From: an uncultured Clostridia bacterium
GTDB taxonomy: Bacteria; Acidobacteriota; Blastocatellia; Chloracidobacteriales; JADJPF01
Length of the DNA: 64,000 bases
Direction of reading: 5' to 3'
NCBI GenBank assembly: GCA_964492845.1
Contig: CAZBMZ010000031.1
Location: 2,181-66,180 of the forward strand
The notes under the pieces are model-generated. The model was not told where the DNA came from. It worked only from the letters and a program-made list of their open reading frames with translations, and did not search any database. Below are positions 4,368 through 43,536 of this stretch, in pieces. The stretch's first letter is position 1; every line of letters begins with the position of its first letter. A program made the translations under genes and the position numbers.

Positions 4368-6488
4368 ATGCGAAGATACGTATATTTAACAATGTTTTTC
4401 TTTGGATTATTTGTAGCAGTATTTTCAATAAATAATAATCAAACCCAAGCAGCCAAAAAGACCTTTAACAAGGGAAGCCAACAAGAATTAAGTTTAGCCA
4501 AAACTATAAGTTATCAATATTTAGCCAAATATACAGAAAATTATGGAATAGATAGTACAAAAGATTTAAGAGTAAGTAATGTAGTGGTAGACGATTTATC
4601 AATGGCACACACCAGAATGCAACAAACCTACAAGGGAGTGCCAGTATTTGGTGGAGAAACAATAGTACACTTAAATTCAGATGGTTCATTATTTAACATA
4701 ACAGATTCATTAGTATCAAAAGTAAGCATTAACACAGAAGCAAAATTAACAGAAACAGATGCCTTAACAAAAGCATATGAAGTATTAGGATGTAGTGATT
4801 GTTTAACAGCACAACCAAAAGTAGATATGTTTATACTCAGACATAAAAAGAAAGATCATTTAGTTTATAGAGTACAACTTGAGAGAATTGATGGCAGCGC
4901 AGAAACATCAATGCCAGTTTATTTTATTGATGCTCACACAGGTAAGAAAGTATGGGAATACAATAACTTACAAACAGCAAGTGCAAACGTTACTGGTACA
5001 TCCACTTATTATGGAACACGAACTTTAACAGGTTATCAAAGTGGTACTACTTTTTACCTAGAAGATGTTGTTCGTAAGGTTGGTACTTTTAATTACAACA
5101 ACACTACTTCAAGCGTTTCTCGAGCTTCTGACACAGATGGTAACTTTAACGCAACAAACCAAAGAGCTATGATAGATGTTCAATATGGTATTGCTGCAAC
5201 CTATGATTACTTTAAGAATGTACACGGTCGCAATGGTATTGATGGTGCAGGTGGCCCAGCCTTTTACACCTCTATTGATGGAGCTACAGGTTTGATTTCC
5301 GCTAGAGTTCATTACAGCACAAATTATAACAACGCATTTTGGAACGGCCAAAATATGACATTTGGTGATGGAAACGGCACAACCTTTAGTGCATTAACAA
5401 CCATTGACATTTGCGCTCACGAATTATCACACGGAGTAACAGAACGTACAGCAGGATTGGTTTATGCAAATGAATCTGGAGCATTAAATGAATCAATGTC
5501 AGATGTTTTTGGTGTAATGGTAGATAGATCAGTAAGAGGGGAAAGCGCAAACACTTGGAAGATAGGCGAAGAATGCTTTACTCCTAGCAACGGAACAAAT
5601 GATGCACTGCGTTATATGGACAACCCACACTTAGCAGGAAATGGTGGATTTACAAGTGACGACGACCCAGACCACTACACAGAACGCTATACAGGAACAG
5701 CAGATAATGGTGGTGTACACATCAATTCAGGTATTCCAAATAATGTATTTTATCTAGTAGCCAAAGGTGGAACACACCATAGAGGCGGCTCAATGACAGG
5801 AATAGGAGCAGATAAAGCAGCAGCAATTTGGTACAGAGCATTAACATCATTTATGACCTCAAGCACCAACTTTGCAGGAGCAAGAACAGCAACATTAAAT
5901 GCAGCAACAGCCATTTATGGAACTGGAAGCACAGAATACAATGCAGTATGTAGTGCTTGGGCATTATGCGGAGTAGGAACAAGCTGTACAACTCCACCAC
6001 CTCCACCACCTCCAACCGGCGGCGGCGAACTATTAACCAACGGTGGATTTGAAACTAGTTTGACTCCTTGGGTTAAGAGTGGAACAGGAGCATTATACAT
6101 AGCTAATGGAGCATCTCCACACTCAGGAACTGGTTATAGTTATTTTGGAAATGCAAACAGCAGAACAGGACAAACATATCAACAAATAACAATCCCAAGT
6201 GGAGCATCTCCAACACTTACATTTTATTTGAATGTAACATCAGCAGAAACAACAACATCAACTCAGTATGATAGATTGTTTGTAGAATTACGTAGCACCT
6301 CTGGAGCATTACTTAAGACTTTAGCTACCTACAGCAACTTAAATAAAACAGCTTCTTCTACTAGCTACACACTCAGAAGCTTAAGCTTGGCTGGTTATAG
6401 CGGTCAAACCGTCCGAGTTCAATTCCGGGTAGCTACTGATAGAAGTTCTATCACTACCTTCCGTGTTGATACTGCTTCTGTTAAGTAA
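4368..6488 (+). CDS. Secreted M4 (thermolysin-like) zinc metalloprotease, copy 1: propeptide, catalytic domain, poly-Pro linker, C-terminal jelly-roll-like domain
   Basis: Signal peptide present. HEXXH (AHELSHGVTE) followed by GALNESMSD (third Zn ligand Glu) and a thermolysin-like C-terminal helical part (GGVHINSGIPN). Linker TTPPPPPPPTGGG, then LLTNGGFE... domain. GGAGG SD precedes the ATG. Confidence 0.9.
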   Translation: MRRYVYLTMFFFGLFVAVFSINNNQTQAAKKTFNKGSQQELSLAKTISYQYLAKYTENYGIDSTKDLRVSNVVVDDLSMAHTRMQQTYKGVPVFGGETIVHLNSDGSLFNITDSLVSKVSINTEAKLTETDALTKAYEVLGCSDCLTAQPKVDMFILRHKKKDHLVYRVQLERIDGSAETSMPVYFIDAHTGKKVWEYNNLQTASANVTGTSTYYGTRTLTGYQSGTTFYLEDVVRKVGTFNYNNTTSSVSRASDTDGNFNATNQRAMIDVQYGIAATYDYFKNVHGRNGIDGAGGPAFYTSIDGATGLISARVHYSTNYNNAFWNGQNMTFGDGNGTTFSALTTIDICAHELSHGVTERTAGLVYANESGALNESMSDVFGVMVDRSVRGESANTWKIGEECFTPSNGTNDALRYMDNPHLAGNGGFTSDDDPDHYTERYTGTADNGGVHINSGIPNNVFYLVAKGGTHHRGGSMTGIGADKAAAIWYRALTSFMTSSTNFAGARTATLNAATAIYGTGSTEYNAVCSAWALCGVGTSCTTPPPPPPPTGGGELLTNGGFETSLTPWVKSGTGALYIANGASPHSGTGYSYFGNANSRTGQTYQQITIPSGASPTLTFYLNVTSAETTTSTQYDRLFVELRSTSGALLKTLATYSNLNKTASSTSYTLRSLSLAGYSGQTVRVQFRVATDRSSITTFRVDTASVK
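4446..6427 (+). repeat. Core of tandem duplication (copy 1), apparently identical to 7194..9175
   Basis: Offset is 2748 nt. The last 5' mismatch is at 4445/7193 and the first 3' mismatch at 6428/9176. Seven 60-nt lines spot-checked were identical. The sense translation and three antisense ORF translations are also identical across the block. Confidence 0.85.
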
Positions 6489-6520
6489 GTATTTTTTAAG
6501 CGTAACTTATTTTAATAAAA

Positions 6521-6547
6521 GGCTAGAGTAATTGCTCTAGCCTTTTT
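6521..6547 (+). terminator. Rho-independent terminator of M4 protease copy 1
   Basis: GGCTAGAG-TAATTG-CTCTAGCC followed by TTTTT, 33 nt after the stop codon. Confidence 0.75.
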
Positions 6548-7115: not shown

Positions 7116-9236
7116 ATGCGAAGATATCTATATTTAACAATGTTTTTCTTTGGATTATTTGTAGCAGTATTTTCAATAAATAGTAATCAATCACAAGCAG
7201 CCAAAAAGACCTTTAACAAGGGAAGCCAACAAGAATTAAGTTTAGCCAAAACTATAAGTTATCAATATTTAGCCAAATATACAGAAAATTATGGAATAGA
7301 TAGTACAAAAGATTTAAGAGTAAGTAATGTAGTGGTAGACGATTTATCAATGGCACACACCAGAATGCAACAAACCTACAAGGGAGTGCCAGTATTTGGT
7401 GGAGAAACAATAGTACACTTAAATTCAGATGGTTCATTATTTAACATAACAGATTCATTAGTATCAAAAGTAAGCATTAACACAGAAGCAAAATTAACAG
7501 AAACAGATGCCTTAACAAAAGCATATGAAGTATTAGGATGTAGTGATTGTTTAACAGCACAACCAAAAGTAGATATGTTTATACTCAGACATAAAAAGAA
7601 AGATCATTTAGTTTATAGAGTACAACTTGAGAGAATTGATGGCAGCGCAGAAACATCAATGCCAGTTTATTTTATTGATGCTCACACAGGTAAGAAAGTA
7701 TGGGAATACAATAACTTACAAACAGCAAGTGCAAACGTTACTGGTACATCCACTTATTATGGAACACGAACTTTAACAGGTTATCAAAGTGGTACTACTT
7801 TTTACCTAGAAGATGTTGTTCGTAAGGTTGGTACTTTTAATTACAACAACACTACTTCAAGCGTTTCTCGAGCTTCTGACACAGATGGTAACTTTAACGC
7901 AACAAACCAAAGAGCTATGATAGATGTTCAATATGGTATTGCTGCAACCTATGATTACTTTAAGAATGTACACGGTCGCAATGGTATTGATGGTGCAGGT
8001 GGCCCAGCCTTTTACACCTCTATTGATGGAGCTACAGGTTTGATTTCCGCTAGAGTTCATTACAGCACAAATTATAACAACGCATTTTGGAACGGCCAAA
8101 ATATGACATTTGGTGATGGAAACGGCACAACCTTTAGTGCATTAACAACCATTGACATTTGCGCTCACGAATTATCACACGGAGTAACAGAACGTACAGC
8201 AGGATTGGTTTATGCAAATGAATCTGGAGCATTAAATGAATCAATGTCAGATGTTTTTGGTGTAATGGTAGATAGATCAGTAAGAGGGGAAAGCGCAAAC
8301 ACTTGGAAGATAGGCGAAGAATGCTTTACTCCTAGCAACGGAACAAATGATGCACTGCGTTATATGGACAACCCACACTTAGCAGGAAATGGTGGATTTA
8401 CAAGTGACGACGACCCAGACCACTACACAGAACGCTATACAGGAACAGCAGATAATGGTGGTGTACACATCAATTCAGGTATTCCAAATAATGTATTTTA
8501 TCTAGTAGCCAAAGGTGGAACACACCATAGAGGCGGCTCAATGACAGGAATAGGAGCAGATAAAGCAGCAGCAATTTGGTACAGAGCATTAACATCATTT
8601 ATGACCTCAAGCACCAACTTTGCAGGAGCAAGAACAGCAACATTAAATGCAGCAACAGCCATTTATGGAACTGGAAGCACAGAATACAATGCAGTATGTA
8701 GTGCTTGGGCATTATGCGGAGTAGGAACAAGCTGTACAACTCCACCACCTCCACCACCTCCAACCGGCGGCGGCGAACTATTAACCAACGGTGGATTTGA
8801 AACTAGTTTGACTCCTTGGGTTAAGAGTGGAACAGGAGCATTATACATAGCTAATGGAGCATCTCCACACTCAGGAACTGGTTATAGTTATTTTGGAAAT
8901 GCAAACAGCAGAACAGGACAAACATATCAACAAATAACAATCCCAAGTGGAGCATCTCCAACACTTACATTTTATTTGAATGTAACATCAGCAGAAACAA
9001 CAACATCAACTCAGTATGATAGATTGTTTGTAGAATTACGTAGCACCTCTGGAGCATTACTTAAGACTTTAGCTACCTACAGCAACTTAAATAAAACAGC
9101 TTCTTCTACTAGCTACACACTCAGAAGCTTAAGCTTGGCTGGTTATAGCGGTCAAACCGTCCGAGTTCAATTCCGTGTCAGTACTGACAGCAGTGCTATC
9201 ACTACCTTCCGTGTTGATACTGCTTCTGCTAAGTAA
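7116..9236 (+). CDS. Secreted M4 (thermolysin-like) zinc metalloprotease, copy 2
   Basis: 706 aa. Differs from copy 1 only near the N-terminus (V5L, N23S, T26S) and the last ~20 residues (ATDRSSI/STDSSAI, SVK/SAK). Same HEXXH/NESMSD motifs and its own SD (GAGGAG). Confidence 0.9.
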   Translation: MRRYLYLTMFFFGLFVAVFSINSNQSQAAKKTFNKGSQQELSLAKTISYQYLAKYTENYGIDSTKDLRVSNVVVDDLSMAHTRMQQTYKGVPVFGGETIVHLNSDGSLFNITDSLVSKVSINTEAKLTETDALTKAYEVLGCSDCLTAQPKVDMFILRHKKKDHLVYRVQLERIDGSAETSMPVYFIDAHTGKKVWEYNNLQTASANVTGTSTYYGTRTLTGYQSGTTFYLEDVVRKVGTFNYNNTTSSVSRASDTDGNFNATNQRAMIDVQYGIAATYDYFKNVHGRNGIDGAGGPAFYTSIDGATGLISARVHYSTNYNNAFWNGQNMTFGDGNGTTFSALTTIDICAHELSHGVTERTAGLVYANESGALNESMSDVFGVMVDRSVRGESANTWKIGEECFTPSNGTNDALRYMDNPHLAGNGGFTSDDDPDHYTERYTGTADNGGVHINSGIPNNVFYLVAKGGTHHRGGSMTGIGADKAAAIWYRALTSFMTSSTNFAGARTATLNAATAIYGTGSTEYNAVCSAWALCGVGTSCTTPPPPPPPTGGGELLTNGGFETSLTPWVKSGTGALYIANGASPHSGTGYSYFGNANSRTGQTYQQITIPSGASPTLTFYLNVTSAETTTSTQYDRLFVELRSTSGALLKTLATYSNLNKTASSTSYTLRSLSLAGYSGQTVRVQFRVSTDSSAITTFRVDTASAK
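7194..9175 (+). repeat. Core of tandem duplication (copy 2)
   Basis: See 4446..6427. Confidence 0.85.
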
Positions 9237-9273
9237 AAGATTCGTTTCTAATTTGCTAATTAATATAGTAAAA

Positions 9274-9300
9274 GCCAGAGTAATAACTCTGGCTTTTTTT
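9274..9300 (+). terminator. Rho-independent terminator of M4 protease copy 2
   Basis: GCCAGAG-TAATAA-CTCTGGC followed by TTTTTTT. It is homologous in layout to the copy-1 terminator but diverged in sequence. Confidence 0.8.
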
Positions 9301-36455: not shown

Positions 36456-39257
36456 ATGTCTAATCGCTTAAAGATAAAGCTACTTACAATATTTGTGTGT
36501 TTTTTGATACTGGTAATAGTGCCTAATCAATCGTCCTTCTCTAGCAATAAGTTTTATTTTTCTCCTTATCAAGTAGGAGAATCTAACCCGCCAAAAATAA
36601 ATAGTGTTAGCCCTAATAAATTTCCTTTAGCTGGAAATGTGGAAATTGTCATAACGGGAGAGAATTTTTCTGCTAACTCATTGATAGTTTTAGGAGATAA
36701 AGTTATTGCAAATGCTACAATTAGCGAAAAAGAAATAAGGTTTTTAGCTCCTAGTCAGGACTTAGCTGGAAACCTAACTTTAACAATACAAAATGTTAAT
36801 GGTTTAGCTCAAAGCGAACTCCAAGCATTACCCAAAGATATAAATGAGTTACAACCAGGTGAAATTACTACTTTACTTGCAACTAAGGCTGCTTTAGGAA
36901 ATGGACAATCAGCTAGCAAAATAAGCTTAAAATCTTCTGCTAAAATATCAGTTGATAAAAATGGAAATATTTTTATTGCAGACACAATTAATCATTGTGT
37001 GCGGCGTGTAGATGCTAAAACAGGCATTATTACTTTGGTAGCTGGAATGGGGGTTGCGGGTTTTGCTGGTGATGGACAACTAGCTTTAACAGCTAAACTT
37101 AATAGTCCAACAGATGTTGCTTTAGATAATGATGGAAATATATTTATTTTAGATTCTGGTAATTTAAGAATTCGCAGGATAGATAACCAAACAGGGATAA
37201 TTACAACTTTTGTTGGAAATGGAATTTTTAGTTGTTTAGGGACATTTTGTGGTGTTAGAGGTGATGGTGGCCTGGCTACAGAAGCTAGTGTAGAGGCAGA
37301 AGCCATAAGCGTAGATGCTTCAGGAAATTTATTTATCATAGAATCTGGCATAGAATTTAATTGCATTAGAAAAGTGGACAAGCAAACGGGAATTATTACT
37401 GGGTTTCTTGGTAGTTGTCCAAAACAATTTTTTATACCTTGTGATCCAGAAAAAGAAGATAACTGTATGTCTTTTATTGATATTGCTTCAGATAAAGAAG
37501 GGAATATCTTTGCAATTAATTCGGGAAATGATTCTATTGATCGAATAGACTCTACCACTGGACAAAGAAGTATATTGCAACGCTATGACCGGTTTAATAG
37601 CCAAATTCCAAAACTTAGTTCTATTGCAGTTGATCAAGAAGGAAACGTCTTAATAACCACTGTGGAAAATACAATTATTAAGCTAGATGGAAAAACTGGG
37701 GAAATGCTCTCAACAATTGCTGGTAATGGAGAAAGGGGTTTTAGTGGTGATAAAGGATTGGCAATAGAAGCTAGCTTTGATTTTTTTGATACCTCCTTGG
37801 AAGAAGAAGCATCTTTAGATGTTGACCAAATAGGAAATATTTTTATTTCCGATGCTGGCAATAATAGAATCCGTAAAATTTCAGCTAATACAAACATAGT
37901 AGAAACAATAGCTGGTGTAGGTCAGGTTATAACTGAACCATCAGAAAACGCTTTTCTAAATATGCCCTACATAAAAGTAAAAAATGACAAGCTTTATGCT
38001 TCAGATATTTTTACTAATACTGTAAAAGCCTTAGACTTAAACACAGGGCAAATAACAGTTATTGCAGGTAATGGTCGAGAAGGTTTTAGTGGCGATGAGG
38101 GATTAGCAACAGAAGCTAGCTTAAATTTTCCTCAAGGCATAGCAATTAATAATGCGGGAGATGTTTTTATTGCTGATAGGGGTAATAGTCGTGTCCGAAA
38201 AGTAGATGCTAAAACAGGTATAATTACTACGTTTGCTGGTAATGGTAAGTTTGACGAGGTAGTTAAAAATGATGTTGTAGCAACAGAAACCTGTTTATTT
38301 GGCCCATTGGATTTAGTCTTGGATTTAGAAGAAAATCTACTTGTTATAGATGGGCCTGCTATTAGAAGAATAGATGCTAAAACTAATATTATCAATAAGA
38401 TTGCTGGTAATGGATATAAGAAAGGTGATGGAATTTTAGCAACAGAAGCTGACTTAAATGATCCTATTAGCATAGCAGTAAATTCTAAAGGGGATATTTT
38501 TGTTACTAGCTTTAGTGATGGAAAAGTGTACCGAGTAGATGCTAAAACAGGTATAATTACTACTTTTGTTGGTAAAAAGATGACCGGATTTAATGGCGAA
38601 GGGATACTTGCAACTGAAGCAGGAATAGTACTACCAAAAGGAATAACTTTTGACGAACAAGATAATTTGTTTGTTACCGACACTTTTAATAACTGGGTAA
38701 GAAAAGTAGATGCCAAAACAGGAATTATTAATACTGTTGTAGGAAATGGTTCTTTAGGCTATAGCGGTGATAATGATTCTGCTGTAGGTGCTAGTTTAGA
38801 AACGCCTAGTATAATTGCTTATGGTAATGGAAAGCTATTTATTTGTGACCAGGTGATAGACCCCAACGATTTTGGTTTGTTTTTTAACCAATTTAACCGA
38901 GTTGTTAGAGTGGCTAAGATAGCAACAGAAGATGATTTTGGATTATTTATAACTAATCTTCCTGCTGTTTTTGTTAGTCAACAAAAACGAGAAAAATTTG
39001 TAATTAGTATTAATAAGTTAAATGCTTTTGAGGGAGATGTTACGATTACCCCTCCGCAAAATTTGCCTTTAGGAATTAAGTTTATCCCTGCAAAGCCTAT
39101 TACAATTAATACAAATGCTAATTTTAAGGTTAAAATTACAAAAGAACTTCCTTGTGGTAATAATAAATTTACTTTTGTTGGGCAGGATTCAAAAGGACGT
39201 AAAAGAAATGTTGAATTAAGAGTAATCTCCGAAGAACAATTATTTTGTATTAGGTAA
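36456..39257 (+). CDS. Secreted NHL-repeat protein with N-terminal IPT/TIG domain (paralogue class of 9811..13743)
   Basis: Signal peptide present. IPT segment PPKINSVSPNKFPLAGNVEIVITGENFS. About 12 NHL-type repeats (GNIFIADTINHCVRRVDAKTGIITLVAG...). Confidence 0.85.
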   Translation: MSNRLKIKLLTIFVCFLILVIVPNQSSFSSNKFYFSPYQVGESNPPKINSVSPNKFPLAGNVEIVITGENFSANSLIVLGDKVIANATISEKEIRFLAPSQDLAGNLTLTIQNVNGLAQSELQALPKDINELQPGEITTLLATKAALGNGQSASKISLKSSAKISVDKNGNIFIADTINHCVRRVDAKTGIITLVAGMGVAGFAGDGQLALTAKLNSPTDVALDNDGNIFILDSGNLRIRRIDNQTGIITTFVGNGIFSCLGTFCGVRGDGGLATEASVEAEAISVDASGNLFIIESGIEFNCIRKVDKQTGIITGFLGSCPKQFFIPCDPEKEDNCMSFIDIASDKEGNIFAINSGNDSIDRIDSTTGQRSILQRYDRFNSQIPKLSSIAVDQEGNVLITTVENTIIKLDGKTGEMLSTIAGNGERGFSGDKGLAIEASFDFFDTSLEEEASLDVDQIGNIFISDAGNNRIRKISANTNIVETIAGVGQVITEPSENAFLNMPYIKVKNDKLYASDIFTNTVKALDLNTGQITVIAGNGREGFSGDEGLATEASLNFPQGIAINNAGDVFIADRGNSRVRKVDAKTGIITTFAGNGKFDEVVKNDVVATETCLFGPLDLVLDLEENLLVIDGPAIRRIDAKTNIINKIAGNGYKKGDGILATEADLNDPISIAVNSKGDIFVTSFSDGKVYRVDAKTGIITTFVGKKMTGFNGEGILATEAGIVLPKGITFDEQDNLFVTDTFNNWVRKVDAKTGIINTVVGNGSLGYSGDNDSAVGASLETPSIIAYGNGKLFICDQVIDPNDFGLFFNQFNRVVRVAKIATEDDFGLFITNLPAVFVSQQKREKFVISINKLNAFEGDVTITPPQNLPLGIKFIPAKPITINTNANFKVKITKELPCGNNKFTFVGQDSKGRKRNVELRVISEEQLFCIR

Positions 39258-39365
39258 TTATAGAGATAATTACTAAAGCCGCAAAAAATAGCTTGAAAAA
39301 TTTTAATTGCTGCTTTAGCATACGAAGGAATTCATAAACACCTGTTATCAATATCTAAAAATTTT

Positions 39366-39464
39366 ATGCAAAGCACAAGATTTAGCAATTTCAGATTTAC
39401 CTTCCGCTTCTCCTTTAGGGAGCAGCGGACGGCTAAGACTTGTGCAAAGGAAATAGTTGATTAG
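39366..39464 (+). CDS. Candidate Phe-rich leader peptide (32 codons) of the Phe-biosynthesis operon
   Basis: Below the ORF-track cutoff. ATG CAA AGC ACA AGA TTT AGC AAT TTC AGA TTT ACC TTC CGC TTC TCC TTT AGG ... TAG encodes MQSTRFSNFRFTFRFSFREQRTAKTCAKEIVD, with 6 Phe among residues 6-17. No obvious SD. Lies between a candidate promoter and an intrinsic terminator just upstream of chorismate mutase. Confidence 0.55.
   Translation: MQSTRFSNFRFTFRFSFREQRTAKTCAKEIVD
39404..39434 (+). promoter_or_regulatory. Attenuator segments 1 and 2 (anti-antiterminator hairpin; segment 2 also complements the terminator's 5' arm)
   Basis: CCGCTTCTCC (39404..39413, covering Phe codons) pairs with GGAGCAGCGG (39419..39428) in 9 of 10 positions. 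GCGGACGGCT (39425..39434) pairs with AGCCGACTGC (39503..39512) in 9 of 10 positions, including one G-U and with one A-A mismatch. Confidence 0.5.
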
Positions 39465-39504
39465 TTGATTAAAAGTTAATAGCACAAAAAGTTTTAGACT
39501 AAAG

Positions 39505-39549
39505 CCGACTGCGATTCCCTAAATAAAGATCGCAGTCGGTTTTGTTTTT
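39505..39549 (+). terminator. Intrinsic terminator (attenuator 3:4 hairpin) 50 nt upstream of chorismate mutase
   Basis: CCGACTGCGAT-13nt-ATCGCAGTCGG (11-bp perfect stem) followed by TTTTGTTTTT. Confidence 0.8.
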
Positions 39550-39600
39550 ATGGGCTACTTTTAACAAACTTAAAAATCTCTCGAAAGGAAGAAAAAAACA

Positions 39601-39882
39601 ATGAATATTGAAGATTGCAGAGCAGAAATAGACGCTGTAGATGAAAAAATTATTCATTTGCTAAATCGTCGTGCTGAACTAGTAGCAAAAATAGGCGAGA
39701 TAAAACAGCTTCAAGGGCTACCTATTTATGATCCAATCAGGGAAAGTATTGTACTTGCAAATATTTATAATTCTAATAAAGGCCCTTTAGACAACGAAAC
39801 GCTAGAAAGATTCTTTAAGCAAATTATCGCTAAATCTAAGCTTATAGAAACTAATTACATAGAAACTACACTAGCATCTTAA
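39601..39882 (+). CDS. Chorismate mutase (AroQ class, monofunctional)
   Basis: 93 aa. CRAEIDAVDEKIIHLLNRRAELVAKIGEIK...PIYDPIRE is the typical AroQ helix 1 / loop. SD GGAAG. Confidence 0.85.
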   Translation: MNIEDCRAEIDAVDEKIIHLLNRRAELVAKIGEIKQLQGLPIYDPIRESIVLANIYNSNKGPLDNETLERFFKQIIAKSKLIETNYIETTLAS

Positions 39883-39910
39883 CTTTAATAACAAAAGGGT
39901 TGCAAAAATT

Positions 39911-40762
39911 ATGACATATGTAGCATTTCAAGGAGAACCAGGAGCATTTAGCGAAGAAGCCGCTATTTCATTATTAGGCTCACAAACTCAACTACTTCCC
40001 TGCAACAGTTTTGAATCAATGTTTGACGAGGGCCATCAAGGAAAAGCTGATATGATTCTTGCTCCGCTAGAAAATAGTTTAATAGGCTCTATTTCACGCT
40101 GTTATGACCTGCTTTTAGAAAGTTCTTTACAAATTATTGCCGAAGTTGTTCACCCTATTCATCATTGCTTAATAGGCTGTCAAGGGTCGTCTTTTGAAGA
40201 TATAAAAACTGTAGAATCCCATCCAGCAGCACTAGCACAATGTGAGAAATTTTTTGCAGCAAATCCAAAAATCAAAGCTATTGCAACAAATGACACTGCT
40301 GCAAGCGTGCGCCGAGTTATTGAAAGATCTGATCCAACTGTTGCAGCAATTGCTAGTTATCGAGCTTGCTTAATTTATAAAGGTAAACTTTTAGGTCAAA
40401 ATCTAGAAGACAATAGCCAAAATTATACCCGCTTTGGACTACTTACCTCTAAGGATAAGGCTAGTAGAAAATCAACTAAGTTTTCTATACCTAATAAATT
40501 ATCTTTAGCCTTTTATCCATCAAAAGCTGACAATGAGCTATGTAGATTGCTACAGTATTTTACCGATCACAATATAGAGCTATTAAAAATAGAGACACGA
40601 CCAATCAAGGGACGACCTTGGAACTACTCATTTTGCTTAGATTTAAGAGCTTGTCTTGAAAAAGAGCAGCTAAAAAATATCCTAGAAGACCTTCAAAACC
40701 AAGGTTATAAACTGCAATTCTTAGGGTTTTATCCTGAAATGTTAATGCCCAAGCAAAATTAA
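39911..40762 (+). CDS. pheA: Prephenate dehydratase with C-terminal ACT domain
   Basis: VAFQGEPGAFSEEAA start, ENSLIGSI, SHPAALAQC, NYTRF, and an ACT-like tail (LLKIETRPIKGRPWNYSFCLD). Confidence 0.85.
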   Translation: MTYVAFQGEPGAFSEEAAISLLGSQTQLLPCNSFESMFDEGHQGKADMILAPLENSLIGSISRCYDLLLESSLQIIAEVVHPIHHCLIGCQGSSFEDIKTVESHPAALAQCEKFFAANPKIKAIATNDTAASVRRVIERSDPTVAAIASYRACLIYKGKLLGQNLEDNSQNYTRFGLLTSKDKASRKSTKFSIPNKLSLAFYPSKADNELCRLLQYFTDHNIELLKIETRPIKGRPWNYSFCLDLRACLEKEQLKNILEDLQNQGYKLQFLGFYPEMLMPKQN

Positions 40763-40777
40763 ATGGAGAATTAAAAA

Positions 40778-41830
40778 ATGCTTATCAAAATGCTAGAAAG
40801 CGCGACAGAAAGCCAAATAAATTATTTAATAGAAAAAGTAAAAGAGCTTGGGTTTAAACCCTATACAAATTACAGCAGTAATTCTATGACAATTGCAATA
40901 ACAGGAAATGGAAATTCTGACAAATTAAAAACTTTGTCCAATGAATCAGGAGTAAATATGCTTGTACCAACAACACATCCTTTTAAGCTTGCTAGTAGAC
41001 AAAATAAGCTTCAAACCTCGGTGATTGATGTAAGAGGTGTAAAAATAGGTGGAAGAGAAGCTGTAGTAATAGCCGGGCCTTGTTCGGTTGAATCGCGCGA
41101 ACAGCTTTTAGAAACAGCTATTGCAGTAAAAGCGGCTGGTGCTGTGATGTTAAGAGGAGGTGCTTATAAACCTCGTACTTCTCCTTATGATTTTCAAGGC
41201 TTAGGAATAGAAGCTTTAGAACTCTTAAAAGAAGCCAGACAACTTACAGGACTTCCAATTGTTACTGAAGTAATGAGCGAATACGATGTTGAAATAATGA
41301 GCGAGTATGCTGATATGTTGCAAGTAGGTGCAAGAAATATGCAAAACTTTGCTTTACTACGTCGTTTAGCAAAACTCCAAACACCAATTTTGTTAAAACG
41401 TGGCCCTTCAGCAACAATTAAAGAATGGTTACTGGCTGCTGAATATTTGCTAGCTGGTGGAAATGAAAAAGTAGTGTTATGTGAAAGAGGAATAAAGGGC
41501 TTTGATACAGAACTACGCAACACGCTTGATTTAGCGGCAGTTGCTCAAGCTAGAGAACTTTCACATTTGCCTATTATGGTTGATCCTTCTCATGCAACAG
41601 GTAAACGCAGTCTGGTTGCTTCGCTTTCAAAAGCAGCCTTAGCATTAGGCGCAGATGGAGTTTTAGTTGAAGTTCATCCTTGCCCTGAATTTGCTTTGTC
41701 CGACGGCCCACAATCGCTAGATTTTCAAGGTTTTGCCGATATGATGTATCAATTAACAGAACCAAATCGCCCTGTTGCTAGTCCAAAAACTTGGATGATA
41801 GAAACAAATATAGCTCAGGCTATAGCCTAA
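40778..41830 (+). CDS. 3-deoxy-7-phosphoheptulonate (DAHP) synthase, type I-beta, with N-terminal ferredoxin-like regulatory domain
   Basis: Core motifs GPCSVES, RGGAYKPRTSPYDFQGLG, QVGARNMQNF, LKRG, DPSHATG. The ~75-aa N-terminal extension resembles the Thermotoga-type FL domain. Confidence 0.85.
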   Translation: MLIKMLESATESQINYLIEKVKELGFKPYTNYSSNSMTIAITGNGNSDKLKTLSNESGVNMLVPTTHPFKLASRQNKLQTSVIDVRGVKIGGREAVVIAGPCSVESREQLLETAIAVKAAGAVMLRGGAYKPRTSPYDFQGLGIEALELLKEARQLTGLPIVTEVMSEYDVEIMSEYADMLQVGARNMQNFALLRRLAKLQTPILLKRGPSATIKEWLLAAEYLLAGGNEKVVLCERGIKGFDTELRNTLDLAAVAQARELSHLPIMVDPSHATGKRSLVASLSKAALALGADGVLVEVHPCPEFALSDGPQSLDFQGFADMMYQLTEPNRPVASPKTWMIETNIAQAIA

Positions 41831-41868
41831 ACTATAGCCTGAACTTTCAATTGATTTTCTCGCACGGG

Positions 41869-43536
41869 TTATTCAAAACTAGAAGCTAAGTCATTGTTGA
41901 TAATATCGCCTGAAACTACTAGCTCTACACGGCGGTTTTGTTGTCGCCCGCTTGGTGTATCGTTTGAGGCTACAGGGCTTGTTTCTCCAAAACCACGAAA
42001 TGTAATTGCGTCAGGAGCTACGCCCTGTTGATTAAGAAAATCTCGGACGGCTTGAGCGCGGTTTTCCGAAAGTTCTTGGTTATATTCGTCTGTTCCAACG
42101 CTATCTGTATGACCTTCAACTTGGATTTTTAGGCCAGGATAAGCTAGCAATATTCCAGAAACTTTAGCTAGTTTTTCACGTGCGCCGGGCTTAAGTGTAT
42201 ATTTTCCAGTATCAAACAAGACATCTGACATATTAACAATTAAACCTCTAGCTGTATCACGTGTTTCTAAAATTACGCTTAATTGTTTAAGTAATTTAGC
42301 GCGAAGTTGAGTTTTTTCATTTTCAGCTTGTAAGCGCAGACGTTCGGCCTCTTGAGCTTGCAAACGGAGGCGTTCAGCTTCGGCTAAAGTAGCTTGTTGT
42401 TGTGCTAGAGCCTCATTTTTAGCACGTTCAGCTTCAGACTTTTGCTGTGCTGCGTGTTTGGCTGCTAGTTCAGCCTCAATTTTAGCGCGTTCAGCTTCCA
42501 TCTTAGCGCGTTCAGCCGCTAAACGTTCATTTTCGGCTAAAGCTCTACGTTGTGCCTCTATGCGGGCTTGTTGCTCTTTAGCTTCGGCTTCGGCTTTAGC
42601 TTGGGCTTCTCGCTCTGCGGCAGCGGCTCGCTCATTGGCTAGTTGTTCGGCTTCAATGCGTTTTATTGTAATAATTCGCGCATCTTCAGCCGTTTGTACT
42701 GCTTCTCTGGACATTGCAGCAACAGGTTTTTTTCCAGATTTGTTTGCTAAATATTTTTTAGCTTGTTCTAAGCTTCTAAGAGCTTTTTCAAATGTTTCTG
42801 GAGCGTATTTTTCTGCTCCTGTCCAACTAGCAATTTGTACTGCATTTTCTGCCTGATAAAATTCTAGTGGAATATCATTAGAAAATCTTACAGGTTTAAT
42901 AGCCATTGGATTTACATTTAATGTGTATTGCCCTCTTTGCAACAGTTCATATTTAGCATCTACTTCTTCTCGATTTCCTTTAGTATCTTGTCTAATAAAA
43001 TTTTCCATCACTACTACATCGCTTGGTTGAGTTACTGCATAATAAGGTTCTGCTGTAACAATTAACCCAAAAGCTTGTAGCTCAACTGTAGCTGATAGCT
43101 TGCTTTCGTCGTCATCTAATAATACTTCGCCAACATTTATTGCTCGCCCTTCAGGAGTAATTGCCCACATTACATAAGTTAAATATTCAGAGCCATATTT
43201 AGTTGCTGGCTCAAGTTTATCCATTTTGGCATCAATCTTTAACACACCTTGTTTACTTTCTACTTTTGCTTCTCCTTTAGCATTTGGCAAAAGGGCTGTG
43301 CCGCGAAAATCAACCTTTGTTGATCCGCTACGATGTCTATAATTAACAGCTTTTATATTTCTAGCTACTACTGTAACGCGGTAAATAGGAGTTGTATCTT
43401 GTTGATAAATATCATCTTGTTGTATTGTTCGTTGTTTTGATTGCATTGGATTAGGTGCTTGGGAAGATTGAGCAAATAAAACACCAGATAAAGAAATGCT
43501 TAACACTAAACTTAAAATAATAGCTTTTACTTTCAT
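41869..43536 (-). CDS. OmpA-family protein with long Ala/Glu coiled-coil and C-terminal OmpA/MotB peptidoglycan-binding domain
   Basis: Signal peptide present. AEREAQAKAEAEAKEQQARIEAQRRALAENERLAAERAK... coiled coil. C-terminal VLFDTGKYTLKPGAREKL...IQVEGHTDSVGTDEYNQELSENRAQAV...NRRVELVV. Confidence 0.85.
   Translation of the reverse strand: MKVKAIILSLVLSISLSGVLFAQSSQAPNPMQSKQRTIQQDDIYQQDTTPIYRVTVVARNIKAVNYRHRSGSTKVDFRGTALLPNAKGEAKVESKQGVLKIDAKMDKLEPATKYGSEYLTYVMWAITPEGRAINVGEVLLDDDESKLSATVELQAFGLIVTAEPYYAVTQPSDVVVMENFIRQDTKGNREEVDAKYELLQRGQYTLNVNPMAIKPVRFSNDIPLEFYQAENAVQIASWTGAEKYAPETFEKALRSLEQAKKYLANKSGKKPVAAMSREAVQTAEDARIITIKRIEAEQLANERAAAAEREAQAKAEAEAKEQQARIEAQRRALAENERLAAERAKMEAERAKIEAELAAKHAAQQKSEAERAKNEALAQQQATLAEAERLRLQAQEAERLRLQAENEKTQLRAKLLKQLSVILETRDTARGLIVNMSDVLFDTGKYTLKPGAREKLAKVSGILLAYPGLKIQVEGHTDSVGTDEYNQELSENRAQAVRDFLNQQGVAPDAITFRGFGETSPVASNDTPSGRQQNRRVELVVSGDIINNDLASSFE

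What the first reader, a model, noticed from the sequence alone, without database searches (positions are those of the whole stretch)
39293..39600. Candidate phenylalanine leader-peptide attenuator upstream of the chorismate mutase / pheA / DAHP synthase operon
The 343-nt gap after the NHL gene contains four elements. (i) A possible promoter, TTGAAA (39293..39298), 17 nt, TAGCAT (39316..39321). (ii) An unannotated 32-codon ORF (39366..39464), MQSTRFSNFRFTFRFSFREQRTAKTCAKEIVD, with six Phe codons among residues 6-17. (iii) A hairpin in which the Phe-codon segment CCGCTTCTCC (39404..39413) pairs with GGAGCAGCGG (39419..39428). (iv) A strong intrinsic terminator (39505..39549, 11-bp stem plus TTTTGTTTTT) only 50 nt before the chorismate mutase start. 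Segment 2 (GCGGACGGCT, 39425..39434) also complements the terminator's 5' arm (AGCCGACTGC, 39503..39512) in 9 of 10 positions. This gives the classical 1:2 / 2:3 / 3:4 alternative-pairing logic. A ribosome stalled on Phe codons would free segment 2 to form the antiterminator. Leader-peptide attenuation of Phe genes is textbook in Enterobacteria (pheL, pheM), but I am not aware of it in this kind of organism. The same operon's DAHP synthase carries an N-terminal ferredoxin-like regulatory domain, so pathway control would be two-layered. The weak point is that no Shine-Dalgarno precedes the leader ATG.
Basis: partly seen in the sequence, partly recalled or inferred. Interest (0 to 1): 0.7.

Follow-up and report, generated by a model that had tools for sequence, protein, structure and literature searches.

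The report
Acidobacterial phenylalanine leader-peptide transcription attenuator
Upstream of a phenylalanine-biosynthesis operon in a soil/sludge Acidobacterium lies a conserved switch: a tiny Phe-rich reading frame, alternative RNA hairpins and a terminator. It is the textbook E. coli attenuation mechanism, found as an undescribed RNA family in a phylum where none has been characterised.

Summary
These are the promoter-like TTGAAA-17-TAGCAT, the 32-codon ORF with six Phe codons, hairpin A, and an 11-bp-core terminator 51 nt before the chorismate mutase start.

The organism is a Blastocatellia MAG (Acidobacteriota). Thirteen distinct homologous leaders were recovered upstream of stand-alone chorismate mutase–prephenate dehydratase operons, with eight different upstream neighbours and GC of 0.36–0.56. 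All keep the ATG, an open frame and TTY/TAY codons at fixed alternate positions. All keep three helices: A, a newly recognised hairpin B holding the stop codon, and terminator T.

In the 12-sequence alignment, 19 of 40 pairs show compensatory changes (9.5±1.8 in shuffles). A covariance model built from six sequences found the other seven (42–68 bits).

I masked a ribosome on the central aromatic codons and folded the nascent RNA. In all 12 sequences tested, the 3' arm of A then pairs with the 5' arm of T (−8 to −17 kcal/mol).

No Rfam family matches, the peptides are never annotated, and I found no prior description.

Verdict: a real leader-peptide attenuator and a new member of a known kind. 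Function is untested, and no Shine-Dalgarno precedes the leader.

The parts
39293..39321 (+). Sigma-70-type promoter: -35 TTGAAA (39293-39298), 17-nt spacer, -10 TAGCAT (39316-39321)
   Evidence: One search finds the site. TTGAAA-17-TAnnAT is invariant in the low-GC relatives while flanking sequence diverges. TTGACA/TTGACC-17/18-TATAGT occurs in GC-rich members. In total 11 of 13 members have such a site 12-75 nt before the leader ATG. No transcription start site has been mapped.
39366..39464 (+). Leader ORF, 32 codons plus UAG: MQSTRFSNFRFTFRFSFREQRTAKTCAKEIVD. No Shine-Dalgarno.
   Evidence: An ATG and an open frame of 29-38 codons are present in all 13 homologues. Indels in the 5' part keep the frame. 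The peptide is never called as a gene among 15 billion predicted proteins.
39381..39416 (+). Regulatory codons: Phe at codons 6, 9, 11, 13, 15 and 17 (UUU/UUC at 39381, 39390, 39396, 39402, 39408, 39414)
   Evidence: The aligned columns hold TTY or TAY in 11-12 of 12 sequences, while the intervening codons vary, e.g. R/M/N/A/G at codon 10. Three of these codons (6, 9, 11) lie outside any helix.
39403..39429 (+). Hairpin A (segments 1:2): 5' arm 39403-39414 made of Phe-region codons 13-17, 3' arm 39418-39429. It sequesters segment 2 when no ribosome is stalled.
   Evidence: 92% of cells are paired across 12 sequences, and 4 of 11 pairs have compensatory changes. RNAalifold predicts it independently.
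39433..39497 (+). Hairpin B: 5' arm 39433-39445, 3' arm 39482-39486 plus 39490-39497 with a conserved AAA bulge. The loop contains the leader stop codon (39462-39464). It is nested inside the antiterminator.
   Evidence: The outer helix is 84% paired with 5 of 8 pairs compensatory. The inner helix is 94.5% paired. Predicted by RNAalifold. Its role is inferred.
39414..39428 (+). Antiterminator 5' strand (segment 2): GCAGCGG 39422-39428 and UUUAGGGA 39414-39421
   Evidence: With a ribosome masked on codons 11-15, the nascent-RNA minimum-energy fold pairs this strand with 39505-39523. It gains -14 kcal/mol, against -6.1±2.6 for shuffled segment 2 (3 of 200 shuffles as good).
39505..39523 (+). Antiterminator 3' strand, which is the terminator 5' arm and loop: CCG(A)CUGC 39505-39512 and UCCCUAAA 39516-39523
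   Evidence: The core pairing is 93% conserved across 9 sequences, against 14-42% when slid. One compensatory change is seen in L038: A to G in segment 2 with U to C in the terminator arm.
39500..39549 (+). Intrinsic terminator T (segments 3:4): stem 39500-39516 with 39528-39544 (G+C core 39505-39515 with 39529-39539), 11-nt loop, U-tract 39540-39549
   Evidence: energy -23 to -24 kcal/mol, the strongest intergenic hairpin-plus-U-tract in the window. 88% paired, with 9 of 16 pairs compensatory.
39585..39603 (+). Shine-Dalgarno AAGGAAG (39585-39591) and the ATG (39601) of the chorismate mutase gene
   Evidence: GAAAGGAA is conserved in relatives. It is not sequestered by the terminator.
39601..41830 (+). 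Regulated operon: chorismate mutase CM_2 (39601-39882), prephenate dehydratase with a weak ACT match (39911-40762), DAHP synthase with a weak N-terminal ferredoxin-like domain (40778-41830)
   Evidence: Pfam hits. The operon ends at a bidirectional terminator at 41809-41845.

Best explanation
This is a ribosome-mediated (leader-peptide) transcription attenuator that sets expression of the chorismate mutase - prephenate dehydratase - DAHP synthase operon according to the supply of charged tRNA-Phe.

Transcription starts at the conserved promoter (about 39328) and a ribosome translates the 32-codon leader.

Phe sufficient, or no ribosome loaded: nothing stalls on codons 11-15. Hairpin A (39403-39429) forms or re-forms behind the ribosome and locks up segment 2. 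Hairpin B forms. When 39528-39544 is transcribed, terminator T forms and RNA polymerase releases at the U-tract (39540-39549), 51 nt before the first structural gene.

Phe-tRNA scarce: the ribosome stalls on the Phe codons that make up or immediately precede the 5' arm of A. Segment 2 (39414-39428) stays free. With B as a nested clamp that brings the strands together, segment 2 pairs with the terminator's 5' arm and loop (39505-39523) before the 3' arm is made. T cannot form and the operon is transcribed.

Shown here: the presence, conservation and covariation of the ORF, codons and helices, and the computed alternative pairing. Inferred: the promoter start point, translation of the ORF, kinetic competition, the role of B and the response to Phe.
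For: 1. All elements are present at the stated coordinates, and the fold has z = -5.4.

2. Thirteen distinct homologous leaders sit directly upstream of stand-alone CM-PheA operons in Acidobacteriota. They lie behind eight different upstream neighbours: NHL, divergent efp, HU, A2M, isocitrate dehydrogenase, DnaJ, aminotransferase and lactate permease. Several of those upstream genes have their own terminator ahead of the promoter.

3. All 5 stand-alone CM loci fetched blind from the CM protein search carry the leader. Loci with a fused CM-PDT gene or with no CM upstream do not.

4. The ORF is open in all 13. Aromatic codons are fixed at alternate positions, with TTT/TTC and TTC/TAC changes, while intervening codons vary. 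This holds even at 0.5-0.56 GC.

5. The three helices covary on the 12-sequence alignment. 89.3% of cells are paired, against 37-48% when slid. 19 of 40 pairs have changes on both sides, against 9.5±1.8 in shuffles (0 of 500 reach it). RNAalifold finds the same helices.

6. Model R1, built from six low-GC sequences, detects the seven others at 42-68 bits (E 1e-7 to 1e-14). It finds only one copy in the window.

7. In all 12 sequences folded with a ribosome mask, a stall on the central aromatic codons switches the terminator's 5' arm to pair with segment 2. The gain is -8 to -17 kcal/mol; 0-9 of 200 shuffles of segment 2 do as well. A stall at the first codon or two of the series gives little gain (0 to about -6 kcal/mol).

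8. L038 carries a three-way change: segment 2 GCAGCGG to GCGGCGG, terminator arm CUGC to CCGC, and 3' arm GCAG to GCGG.

9. The genes regulated are exactly those controlled this way in E. coli (pheL-pheA) and C. glutamicum (aroR-aroF) (PMC3082878, PMC11802643).
Against: - No experiment exists: no mapped 5' or 3' ends and no Phe response.
- No Shine-Dalgarno precedes the leader ATG in any of the 13 members, although every CM gene has one. Translation of the leader is inferred only from conservation.
- The antiterminator helix is mostly invariant, with one compensatory event. Its complementarity cannot be fully separated from the constraints of helices A and T. Its register differs between low-GC and GC-rich members.
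- In full-length RNA the terminator remains part of the minimum-energy fold even with the ribosome mask. The model therefore depends on co-transcriptional kinetics, as in classical attenuators.
- In L003 the antiterminator is the minimum-energy fold even without a ribosome.
- Phe-rich windows are not rare in this AT-rich DNA.
- The alignment used for pair counts was fitted to the model structure, and the sequences are related, so shuffle counts are not probabilities.
Confidence: 0.85

Rival explanations
1. The hairpin with its U-tract is just the terminator of the upstream NHL gene. The Phe-rich ORF and hairpin A are chance features of AT-rich intergenic DNA.
For: No separate terminator lies between the NHL stop (39257) and the promoter-like site, so read-through transcripts from the NHL gene would also stop at T. 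Phe-rich windows occur at nine loci in the window. The promoter match is no better than chance on its own.
Against: The whole leader, including T, is conserved next to the CM-PheA operon behind eight unrelated upstream genes. One of these is a divergent efp. Others have their own terminator before the conserved promoter. The ORF, codons and helices are conserved and covary.
Confidence: 0.02
2. The element is an RNA-only or protein-dependent attenuator, such as a Phe/Tyr riboswitch, a T-box-like tRNA sensor or a TRAP/PyrR-like protein binder. The three hairpins would do the sensing and the ORF would be incidental.
For: No Shine-Dalgarno is present in any member. Hairpin B and its A-rich bulge are more conserved in sequence than pairing alone requires. 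Much of the peptide conservation (R14, E-Q-R) is explained by the RNA helix.
Against: No Rfam family matches, T-box included, even at E<=10. An ATG and an open frame are kept in 13 sequences across 0.36-0.56 GC, with frame-preserving indels. The conserved unpaired nucleotides are TTY/TAY triplets at a six-nucleotide period, with free variation between them. The substitutions are synonymous (TTT/TTC) or Phe to Tyr. That pattern is coding, not an aptamer.
Confidence: 0.07
3. The ORF encodes a functional small protein (a basic and aromatic peptide) co-transcribed with, or preceding, the operon. The terminator merely separates two transcription units.
For: The ORF is conserved and has its own promoter.
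Against: The C-terminal half is not conserved between lineages, and length varies from 29 to 38 residues. The conserved residues are those encoded by the helix arms and the aromatic codons. There is no Shine-Dalgarno. The link with Phe genes and the overlap with alternative helices are unexplained by this model.
Confidence: 0.03
4. The leader acts mainly at the level of translation or mRNA stability, for example by ribosome re-initiation or by unmasking the CM ribosome-binding site, rather than by transcription termination.
For: Leader genes close to structural genes have been proposed to boost translation by re-initiation, including in Acidobacteria (PMC4833913).
Against: The leader stop codon lies 137 nt before the CM start. 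The CM Shine-Dalgarno is not paired in any predicted conformer. A canonical hairpin plus U-tract is conserved in all members.
Confidence: 0.03

Closest known systems
E. coli pheL-pheA attenuator (Zurawski 1978; reviewed in PMC3082878 and PMC11802643)
   Same: A short ORF rich in Phe codons lies between the promoter and the Phe-biosynthesis gene. A hairpin includes the regulatory codons, an alternative antiterminator is possible, and an intrinsic terminator sits just before the structural gene. The enzymes controlled are the same (chorismate mutase and prephenate dehydratase).
   Different: No sequence or structure homology: there is no Rfam hit at E<=10. The leader has 32 codons rather than 15. 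Phe codons sit at alternate positions (F-x-F-x-F) rather than in runs. An extra conserved hairpin B lies between 1:2 and 3:4, and the stop codon is in its loop. There is no Shine-Dalgarno. CM and PDT are separate genes, and the operon also carries DAHP synthase. pheL is essentially confined to gamma-proteobacteria, with only a few candidates outside (PMC3082878).
Corynebacterium glutamicum aroR leader upstream of the aroF (DAHP synthase) operon (Neshat et al. 2014, as cited in PMC11802643)
   Same: A leader peptide with mixed Phe and Tyr codons controls an operon containing DAHP synthase outside the Proteobacteria. The GC-rich members of the present family also mix Phe and Tyr codons.
   Different: The phylum differs (Actinobacteria). 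aroR has only an F-Y-F triplet. There is no evidence of homology. Here the first regulated genes are CM and PheA.
E. coli trpL and pheM (pheST) classical attenuators
   Same: The same 1:2 / 2:3 / 3:4 competition is decided by the ribosome's position. The default state is termination when the leader is not translated.
   Different: A different amino acid or target. In trpL the ribosome at the stop codon masks segment 2. Here the stop lies about 34 nt beyond segment 2, so termination under sufficiency relies on A re-forming behind the ribosome (inference).
Corynebacterium glutamicum ilvBNC three-hairpin attenuator (PMC11857589)
   Same: A leader-peptide attenuator described by that paper's title and abstract as having three hairpins rather than two. 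I did not read the full text.
   Different: It controls a branched-chain amino acid operon in an unrelated phylum and has no sequence relation. I did not compare the roles of its hairpins with those of A, B and T here.
Putative pheL in Bacteroides and Desulfobacterium (mentioned in PMC3082878)
   Same: Candidate Phe leader peptides outside the gamma-proteobacteria.
   Different: Only mentioned there and not characterised. No comparison of sequences was possible with the tools here.

Membership tests
Leader-peptide (ribosome-mediated) transcription attenuators, as a mechanistic class | A short ORF between the promoter and the structural genes, enriched in codons for the amino acid made by the operon | tested here: met
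   The 32-codon ORF has 6 Phe codons in residues 6-17. Aromatic codons are conserved in 13 homologues.
Leader-peptide (ribosome-mediated) transcription attenuators, as a mechanistic class | An intrinsic terminator between the leader ORF and the first structural gene | tested here: met
   The stem 39500-39544 with U-tract 39540-39549 has an energy of about -24 kcal/mol. It is conserved, with 9 of 16 pairs compensatory.
Leader-peptide (ribosome-mediated) transcription attenuators, as a mechanistic class | A mutually exclusive antiterminator whose formation depends on a ribosome stalled at the regulatory codons | tested here: met
   Met computationally only. Ribosome-masked folding of 12 sequences pairs segment 2 with the terminator's 5' arm, at -8 to -17 kcal/mol. 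This beats 95.5-100% of shuffles. The core is 93% paired, but with only one compensatory change.
Leader-peptide (ribosome-mediated) transcription attenuators, as a mechanistic class | The leader ORF is translated, with a ribosome-binding site | tested here: inconclusive
   No Shine-Dalgarno is present in any member. The ATG and open frame are conserved. Two members (L012, L046) have the -10 box 12-16 nt from the ATG, making them near-leaderless. Translation was not measured.
Leader-peptide (ribosome-mediated) transcription attenuators, as a mechanistic class | Read-through increases when the cognate charged tRNA is limiting | not testable with these tools
   This needs Term-seq or reporter assays in an Acidobacterium or a heterologous host.
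Rfam leader and attenuator families (pheL-type Phe leader, leu/phe leader, Trp/His/Thr/Leu leaders) | A match to the family covariance model | tested here: not met
   cmscan of 39200-39700 at E<=10 returned only chance-level miRNA, Qrr and intron hits. No gathering-score hit was found in the window or in seven related loci.
T-box riboswitch | A specifier loop and the conserved T-box sequence, with an Rfam T-box model match | tested here: not met
   No hit. The element spans only about 185 nt from the ATG to the U-tract, and its conserved unpaired triplets lie inside an ORF.
New family defined here (model R1: Acidobacteriota CM-pheA leader) | Aromatic-codon ORF plus helices A, B and T directly upstream of a stand-alone CM_2 gene followed by a prephenate dehydratase gene | tested here: met
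   The window scores 167 bits. Thirteen distinct members were found. Only one copy is present in the 64-kb window.

The most novel reading that the evidence does not exclude
This is the founding example of an undescribed, widely distributed Acidobacteriota RNA family that departs from the classical design in three linked ways.

1. The leader is translated without any Shine-Dalgarno. In some members it is translated from a near-leaderless transcript, so coupling of the sensing ribosome relies on non-canonical initiation.
2. The strictly conserved hairpin B, with its A-rich bulge and the stop codon in its loop, is an active module. It could be a polymerase pause or timing element, or a binding site for a factor. 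It would not be a passive spacer.
3. Lineages tune specificity between Phe-only and joint Phe/Tyr sensing by TTC-to-TAC swaps at codons 13 and 15.
Probability: 0.25. Interest if true: 0.6.

Novelty: new member of a known kind. Interest (0 to 1): 0.5.

Why it matters
Leader-peptide attenuation is textbook, but documented cases are concentrated in Proteobacteria, with a few in Actinobacteria and Firmicutes. [quoted passage not shown] Phe leaders are described essentially only for gamma-proteobacteria (PMC3082878).

This element gives Acidobacteriota a well-supported amino-acid-sensing cis-regulator. That phylum is abundant in soil, hard to culture and almost unstudied for gene regulation.

It also supplies a covariance model that can annotate the element across MAGs. 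At present neither the RNA nor the peptide is annotated anywhere.

It is a natural comparison for how the same regulatory logic was built independently: alternate-position codons, an inserted third hairpin and no Shine-Dalgarno.

Practically, it flags the CM-PheA-DAHP synthase operon as controlled at two levels in these organisms. One level is attenuation. The other is enzymes carrying ACT and ferredoxin-like domains; those domains mediate allosteric feedback in characterised homologues, which is my own knowledge and was not tested here.

Tried and rejected
1. A metagenome-wide exact-pattern scan for hairpin A returned 15 loci. Only 2 were true relatives (L028, which equals L002, and L029). 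The other 13 were chance matches inside GC-rich coding DNA.

2. A PheA-based scan of GTDB species representatives returned only 11 loci at 32-52% identity. The window's own clade was not recovered. Two distant members (L012, L015) were found only by looking for Phe-rich ORFs and then reading the sequence.

An exact look-up of 10 leader peptides found none.

4. My first automatic detection of the terminator arms failed for L002, L005 and L015, so those rows are invalid. I redid them with explicit arms.

5. MAFFT alone misaligned hairpin B of L038 and hairpin A of L012 and L033. I replaced it with model-based alignments, which lean towards the model structure.

6. It is less conserved in the low-GC group (73% against 93% paired), but it is not wrong for GC-rich members.

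7. I looked for a link between Tyr codons in the leader and operon content. There is none: L015 has the same CM-PheA-DAHPS operon as the window but 3 Phe and 3 Tyr codons.

8. I looked for other attenuator-like terminators or further copies in the window and found none.

9. A relay model (A2:B1, B2:T1, as in the his leader) and a consensus pause site after hairpin A were considered by eye. No consistent complementarity or motif appeared, so I did not pursue them.

10. Literature searches for any description in Acidobacteria found none. The library lacks most subscription journals. From memory, Russian-language comparative surveys of classical attenuation (Lopatovskaya, Seliverstov and Lyubetsky, around 2010) may cover more phyla. 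I could not check them.
Full report
**1. The observation**

- The NHL/TIG-repeat gene ends at 39257 and a CM_2 chorismate mutase gene starts at 39601, leaving a 343-nt gap.
- TTGAAA (39293-39298), 17 nt, TAGCAT (39316-39321) is reported by the promoter scan. Such 9/12 matches are no more frequent than chance in this AT-rich DNA (20 found, 27±4 expected).
- The ORF 39366-39464 reads MQSTRFSNFRFTFRFSFREQRTAKTCAKEIVD, with Phe at residues 6, 9, 11, 13, 15 and 17.
- CCGCTTCTCC (39404-39413) pairs with GGAGCAGCGG (39419-39428), with one U·C mismatch.
- The terminator has an 11-bp G+C-rich core (39505-39515 with 39529-39539). A-U and G-U pairs extend it to 15-17 bp. The loop is 11 nt and the tail is TTTTGTTTTT (39540-39549), 51 nt before the CM start.
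- It is the strongest intergenic hairpin-plus-U-tract in the window, at about -24 kcal/mol. The simple scan missed it only because its loop limit is 8 nt.
- The region 39328-39560 folds at -66.4 kcal/mol, z = -5.4 against dinucleotide shuffles.
- Phe richness alone is not remarkable. Nine loci in the 34% GC window have at least 6 Phe in 12 residues in some frame.
This hairpin B (39433-39497) has a loop that contains the leader stop codon.

**2. Source and relatives**

The prephenate dehydratase belongs to a protein cluster that NCBI names as coming from Blastocatellia / Acidobacteriota MAGs. The next-nearest PheA proteins, at about 56% identity, are from Pyrinomonadaceae.

I fetched the DNA around close PheA relatives (83%, 79%, 72% and 57% identity). 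I also fetched loci from GTDB species representatives and loci around stand-alone chorismate mutases found by a profile search.

Thirteen distinct homologous leaders were found: the window, L029, L002, L003, L005, L038, L041, L012, L015, L033, L043, L045 and L046. All lie directly upstream of a stand-alone CM gene followed by pheA.

The upstream neighbour differs among them: NHL, divergent efp, HU, alpha-2-macroglobulin, isocitrate dehydrogenase, DnaJ, aminotransferase or lactate permease. In L003 and L005 the upstream gene has its own terminator before the leader promoter. The element therefore belongs to the Phe operon and not to whatever lies upstream.

All 5 stand-alone CM loci taken blind from the protein search had the leader. 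Loci with a fused CM-PDT gene (L007, L009, L010), or with pheA not preceded by CM (L011, L014, L036), had none.

Downstream content varies:
- CM-PheA-DAHP synthase in the window group, L015 and the P0157/L046 operon (gene list of its second contig).
- CM-PheA-aroC-aroA in L033, and CM-PheA-aroC (locus ends inside aroC) in L045.
- CM-PheA-aroA in L043.

**3. What is conserved**

*Promoter.* TTGAAA-17-TAnnAT is invariant in the low-GC relatives although the surrounding sequence is not. GC-rich members have TTGACA/TTGACC-17/18-TATAGT. Eleven of 13 have such a site 12-75 nt before the leader ATG.

*ORF.* An ATG and an open frame of 29-38 codons are present in all 13. Indels in the unstructured 5' part are in multiples of three or are compensated (L003).

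*Codons.* TTY or TAY occupies the same alternate codon positions in 11-12 of 12 aligned sequences. Codon 11 is TTT in all. This holds at 0.5-0.56 GC, while intervening codons vary freely. Three of these codons lie outside any helix, so RNA pairing cannot explain them. Several lineages have TAC (Tyr) in place of TTC at codons 13 and/or 15. L015 has 3 Phe and 3 Tyr; L033, L043 and L045 have 5 Phe and 3 Tyr.

*Helices A, B and T.* A covariance model built from six low-GC sequences detected the seven other members at 42-68 bits. It found only one copy in the window. On the 12-sequence model-based alignment:
- 89.3% of cells are paired, against 37-48% when partners are slid.
- 19 of 40 pairs show changes on both sides, against 9.5±1.8 in shuffles; 0 of 500 shuffles reach the observed value.
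- Compensatory pairs number 9 in T, 6 in B and 4 in A.

RNAalifold predicts the same three helices on its own. Two caveats apply. The alignment was fitted to the model, and the sequences are related.

**4. The switch**

I folded each nascent transcript up to the point where the terminator's 3' arm has not yet been made. A 28-nt ribosome footprint was placed on each aromatic codon in turn.

In all 12 sequences tested, a stall on the central codons frees the 3' arm of A. In the window these are codons 11-15, which form or immediately precede the 5' arm of A. The freed arm then pairs with the terminator's 5' arm, with hairpin B nested inside.

Sequestering the terminator arm gains -8 to -17 kcal/mol. 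Shuffling the 24 nt after the footprint reaches this value in only 0-9 of 200 trials per sequence. A stall at the first codon or two of the aromatic series gives little gain (0 to about -6 kcal/mol). A stall at the last codon gives less than the central codons in most sequences, but still -6 to -9 kcal/mol in the window, L002, L005 and L033. A ribosome at the stop codon, or no ribosome, leaves A formed in eight of the nine sequences so tested; the three sequences added were folded only under stalls. The exception is L003, where the antiterminator is the minimum-energy fold even for free RNA.

In the window the pairing is GCAGCGG (39422-39428) with CCG(A)CUGC (39505-39512), plus a perfect 8-bp extension of UUUAGGGA (39414-39421) with UCCCUAAA (39516-39523). 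That core register is 93% paired across nine sequences, against 14-42% when slid. Their folding partners are GCGG plus the spacer just 3' of it, e.g. GCGGCUGC in L043 and L045.

Only one clear compensatory event supports the antiterminator. L038 has GCGGCGG, CCGACCGC and GCGGUCGG where the window has GCAGCGG, CCGACUGC and GCAGUCGG.

In full-length RNA the terminator remains part of the minimum-energy fold in all 9 sequences so tested, even with the mask. As in classical attenuators, the decision must therefore be kinetic.

**5. Mechanism proposed**

The element is best read as classical ribosome-mediated attenuation with three hairpins. The default state is A + B + T, which terminates at 39540-39549. 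This state holds under Phe sufficiency or when no ribosome is loaded.

Under Phe-tRNA limitation, a ribosome stalled on codons 11-15 prevents A from forming. Segment 2 captures the terminator's 5' arm and loop as they emerge, with B acting as a clamp that shortens the loop to be closed. Read-through into CM-pheA-DAHP synthase follows.

The leader stop codon lies about 34 nt beyond segment 2. Unlike trpL, a terminating ribosome does not mask segment 2. Termination under sufficiency would rely on A re-forming behind the ribosome; this is inference.

The roles of B remain untested: clamp, pause element, or something more.

The main weakness is that none of the 13 leaders has a Shine-Dalgarno, whereas every CM gene has one. 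Two members (L012, L046) have the -10 box only 16 and 12 nt from the ATG and would be nearly leaderless. The others would have A/U-rich 5' UTRs of roughly 35-70 nt (the -10 box ends 44-75 nt before the ATG).

**6. Comparison with what is known**

Functionally the closest systems are the following.
- E. coli pheL-pheA: the same pathway step and a Phe-codon leader.
- C. glutamicum aroR-aroF: a Phe/Tyr leader ahead of DAHP synthase.
- The C. glutamicum ilvBNC attenuator, described as a three-hairpin attenuator in its title and abstract; I did not read the full text (PMC3082878, PMC11802643, PMC11857589).

The element is not a member of any described RNA family. No Rfam model matches the region at E<=10, including the leader and T-box families. 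No gathering-score hit occurs in the window or in seven related loci.

None of ten leader peptides exists among 15 billion predicted proteins.

In the searchable literature, pheL is described for gamma-proteobacteria, with "only a few" candidates elsewhere (Bacteroides, Desulfobacterium). A 2010 genome-wide survey stated that leader peptides had not been shown outside Proteobacteria and Actinobacteria, apart from its own Firmicutes case. The same survey noted that Acidobacteria attenuators were essentially unannotated (PMC3082878, PMC2965389). I found no description of this element, but the library is incomplete.

**7. Verdict**

It is a new member (a new RNA family) of a well-known kind of regulator, in a phylum where none has been characterised. 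Confidence that it is a leader-peptide attenuator is 0.85. Interest is moderate at 0.5. The mechanism is textbook, but the comparative support is unusually clean. The family appears widespread among Acidobacteriota with stand-alone CM-pheA operons: the profile search found 2,590 such CM proteins, and every one sampled carried the leader.

Noticed in passing
L012 1943-1988; L046 1268-1312: In two GC-rich members the -10 box ends only 16 nt (L012) or 12 nt (L046) before the leader ATG, so the leader mRNA would be nearly leaderless. None of the 13 leaders has a Shine-Dalgarno, while every downstream CM gene has GGAG/AGGA.
   Followed up: partly
L015 1941-2036; L033 1906-1998; L043 1236-1325; L045 1285-1383: Distant members replace Phe codons at positions 13 and/or 15 with Tyr codons (TTC to TAC). 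This gives 3 Phe + 3 Tyr or 5 Phe + 3 Tyr and suggests joint Phe/Tyr sensing. It does not correlate with operon content: L015 has the same CM-PheA-DAHPS operon as the all-Phe window.
   Followed up: partly
window 39482-39497 and 39540-39549: The 3' arm of hairpin B carries a conserved A-rich bulge (GCAC-AAAAA-GUUUU; GCGC-AAAAA-GAUUU in GC-rich members). ACAAAA is complementary to the G-interrupted U-tract UUUUGU found in several members. This may be trivial A/U complementarity.
   Followed up: no
window 4368-6488, 7116-9236, 6517-6547, 9270-9300: Two tandem 706-aa ORFs on the + strand are each followed by a very similar palindromic, bidirectional-looking terminator (GGCUAGAG...CUCUAGCC and GCCAGAG...CUCUGGC).
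   Followed up: no
window 41809-41845: A bidirectional terminator with a 12-15 bp palindromic stem lies between the end of the DAHP synthase gene (+) and the convergent OmpA-family gene at 41869-43536 (-). It marks the 3' end of the regulated operon.
   Followed up: no
L046 1100-1225: Arrays of short GGTACTTGGTGCTT-like repeats are followed by their reverse complement (ACCAAGTACCAAGTA...). Together they form a long inverted repeat between the lactate permease gene and the leader promoter.
   Followed up: no
L036 2300-2500: REP-like inverted repeats (…GCGGTAAGGC…GCCTTACCGC…) fill the gap between an aminotransferase gene and pheA. This Acidobacteriota locus lacks both CM and the leader.
   Followed up: no
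L008 (DATHNC010000113.1): A contig labelled Candidatus Saccharimonadales carries a PheA 52% identical to the window's, grouping with Acidobacteriota hits. This may be a binning error in that MAG.
   Followed up: no
window 40778-40963 (DAHP synthase residues 1-62): The N-terminal ferredoxin-like domain (PF18152) scores 24.4 bits here, below Pfam's cutoff of 27. The orthologue in L015 scores 69 bits. The domain is probably real but divergent in the window's lineage.
   Followed up: partly
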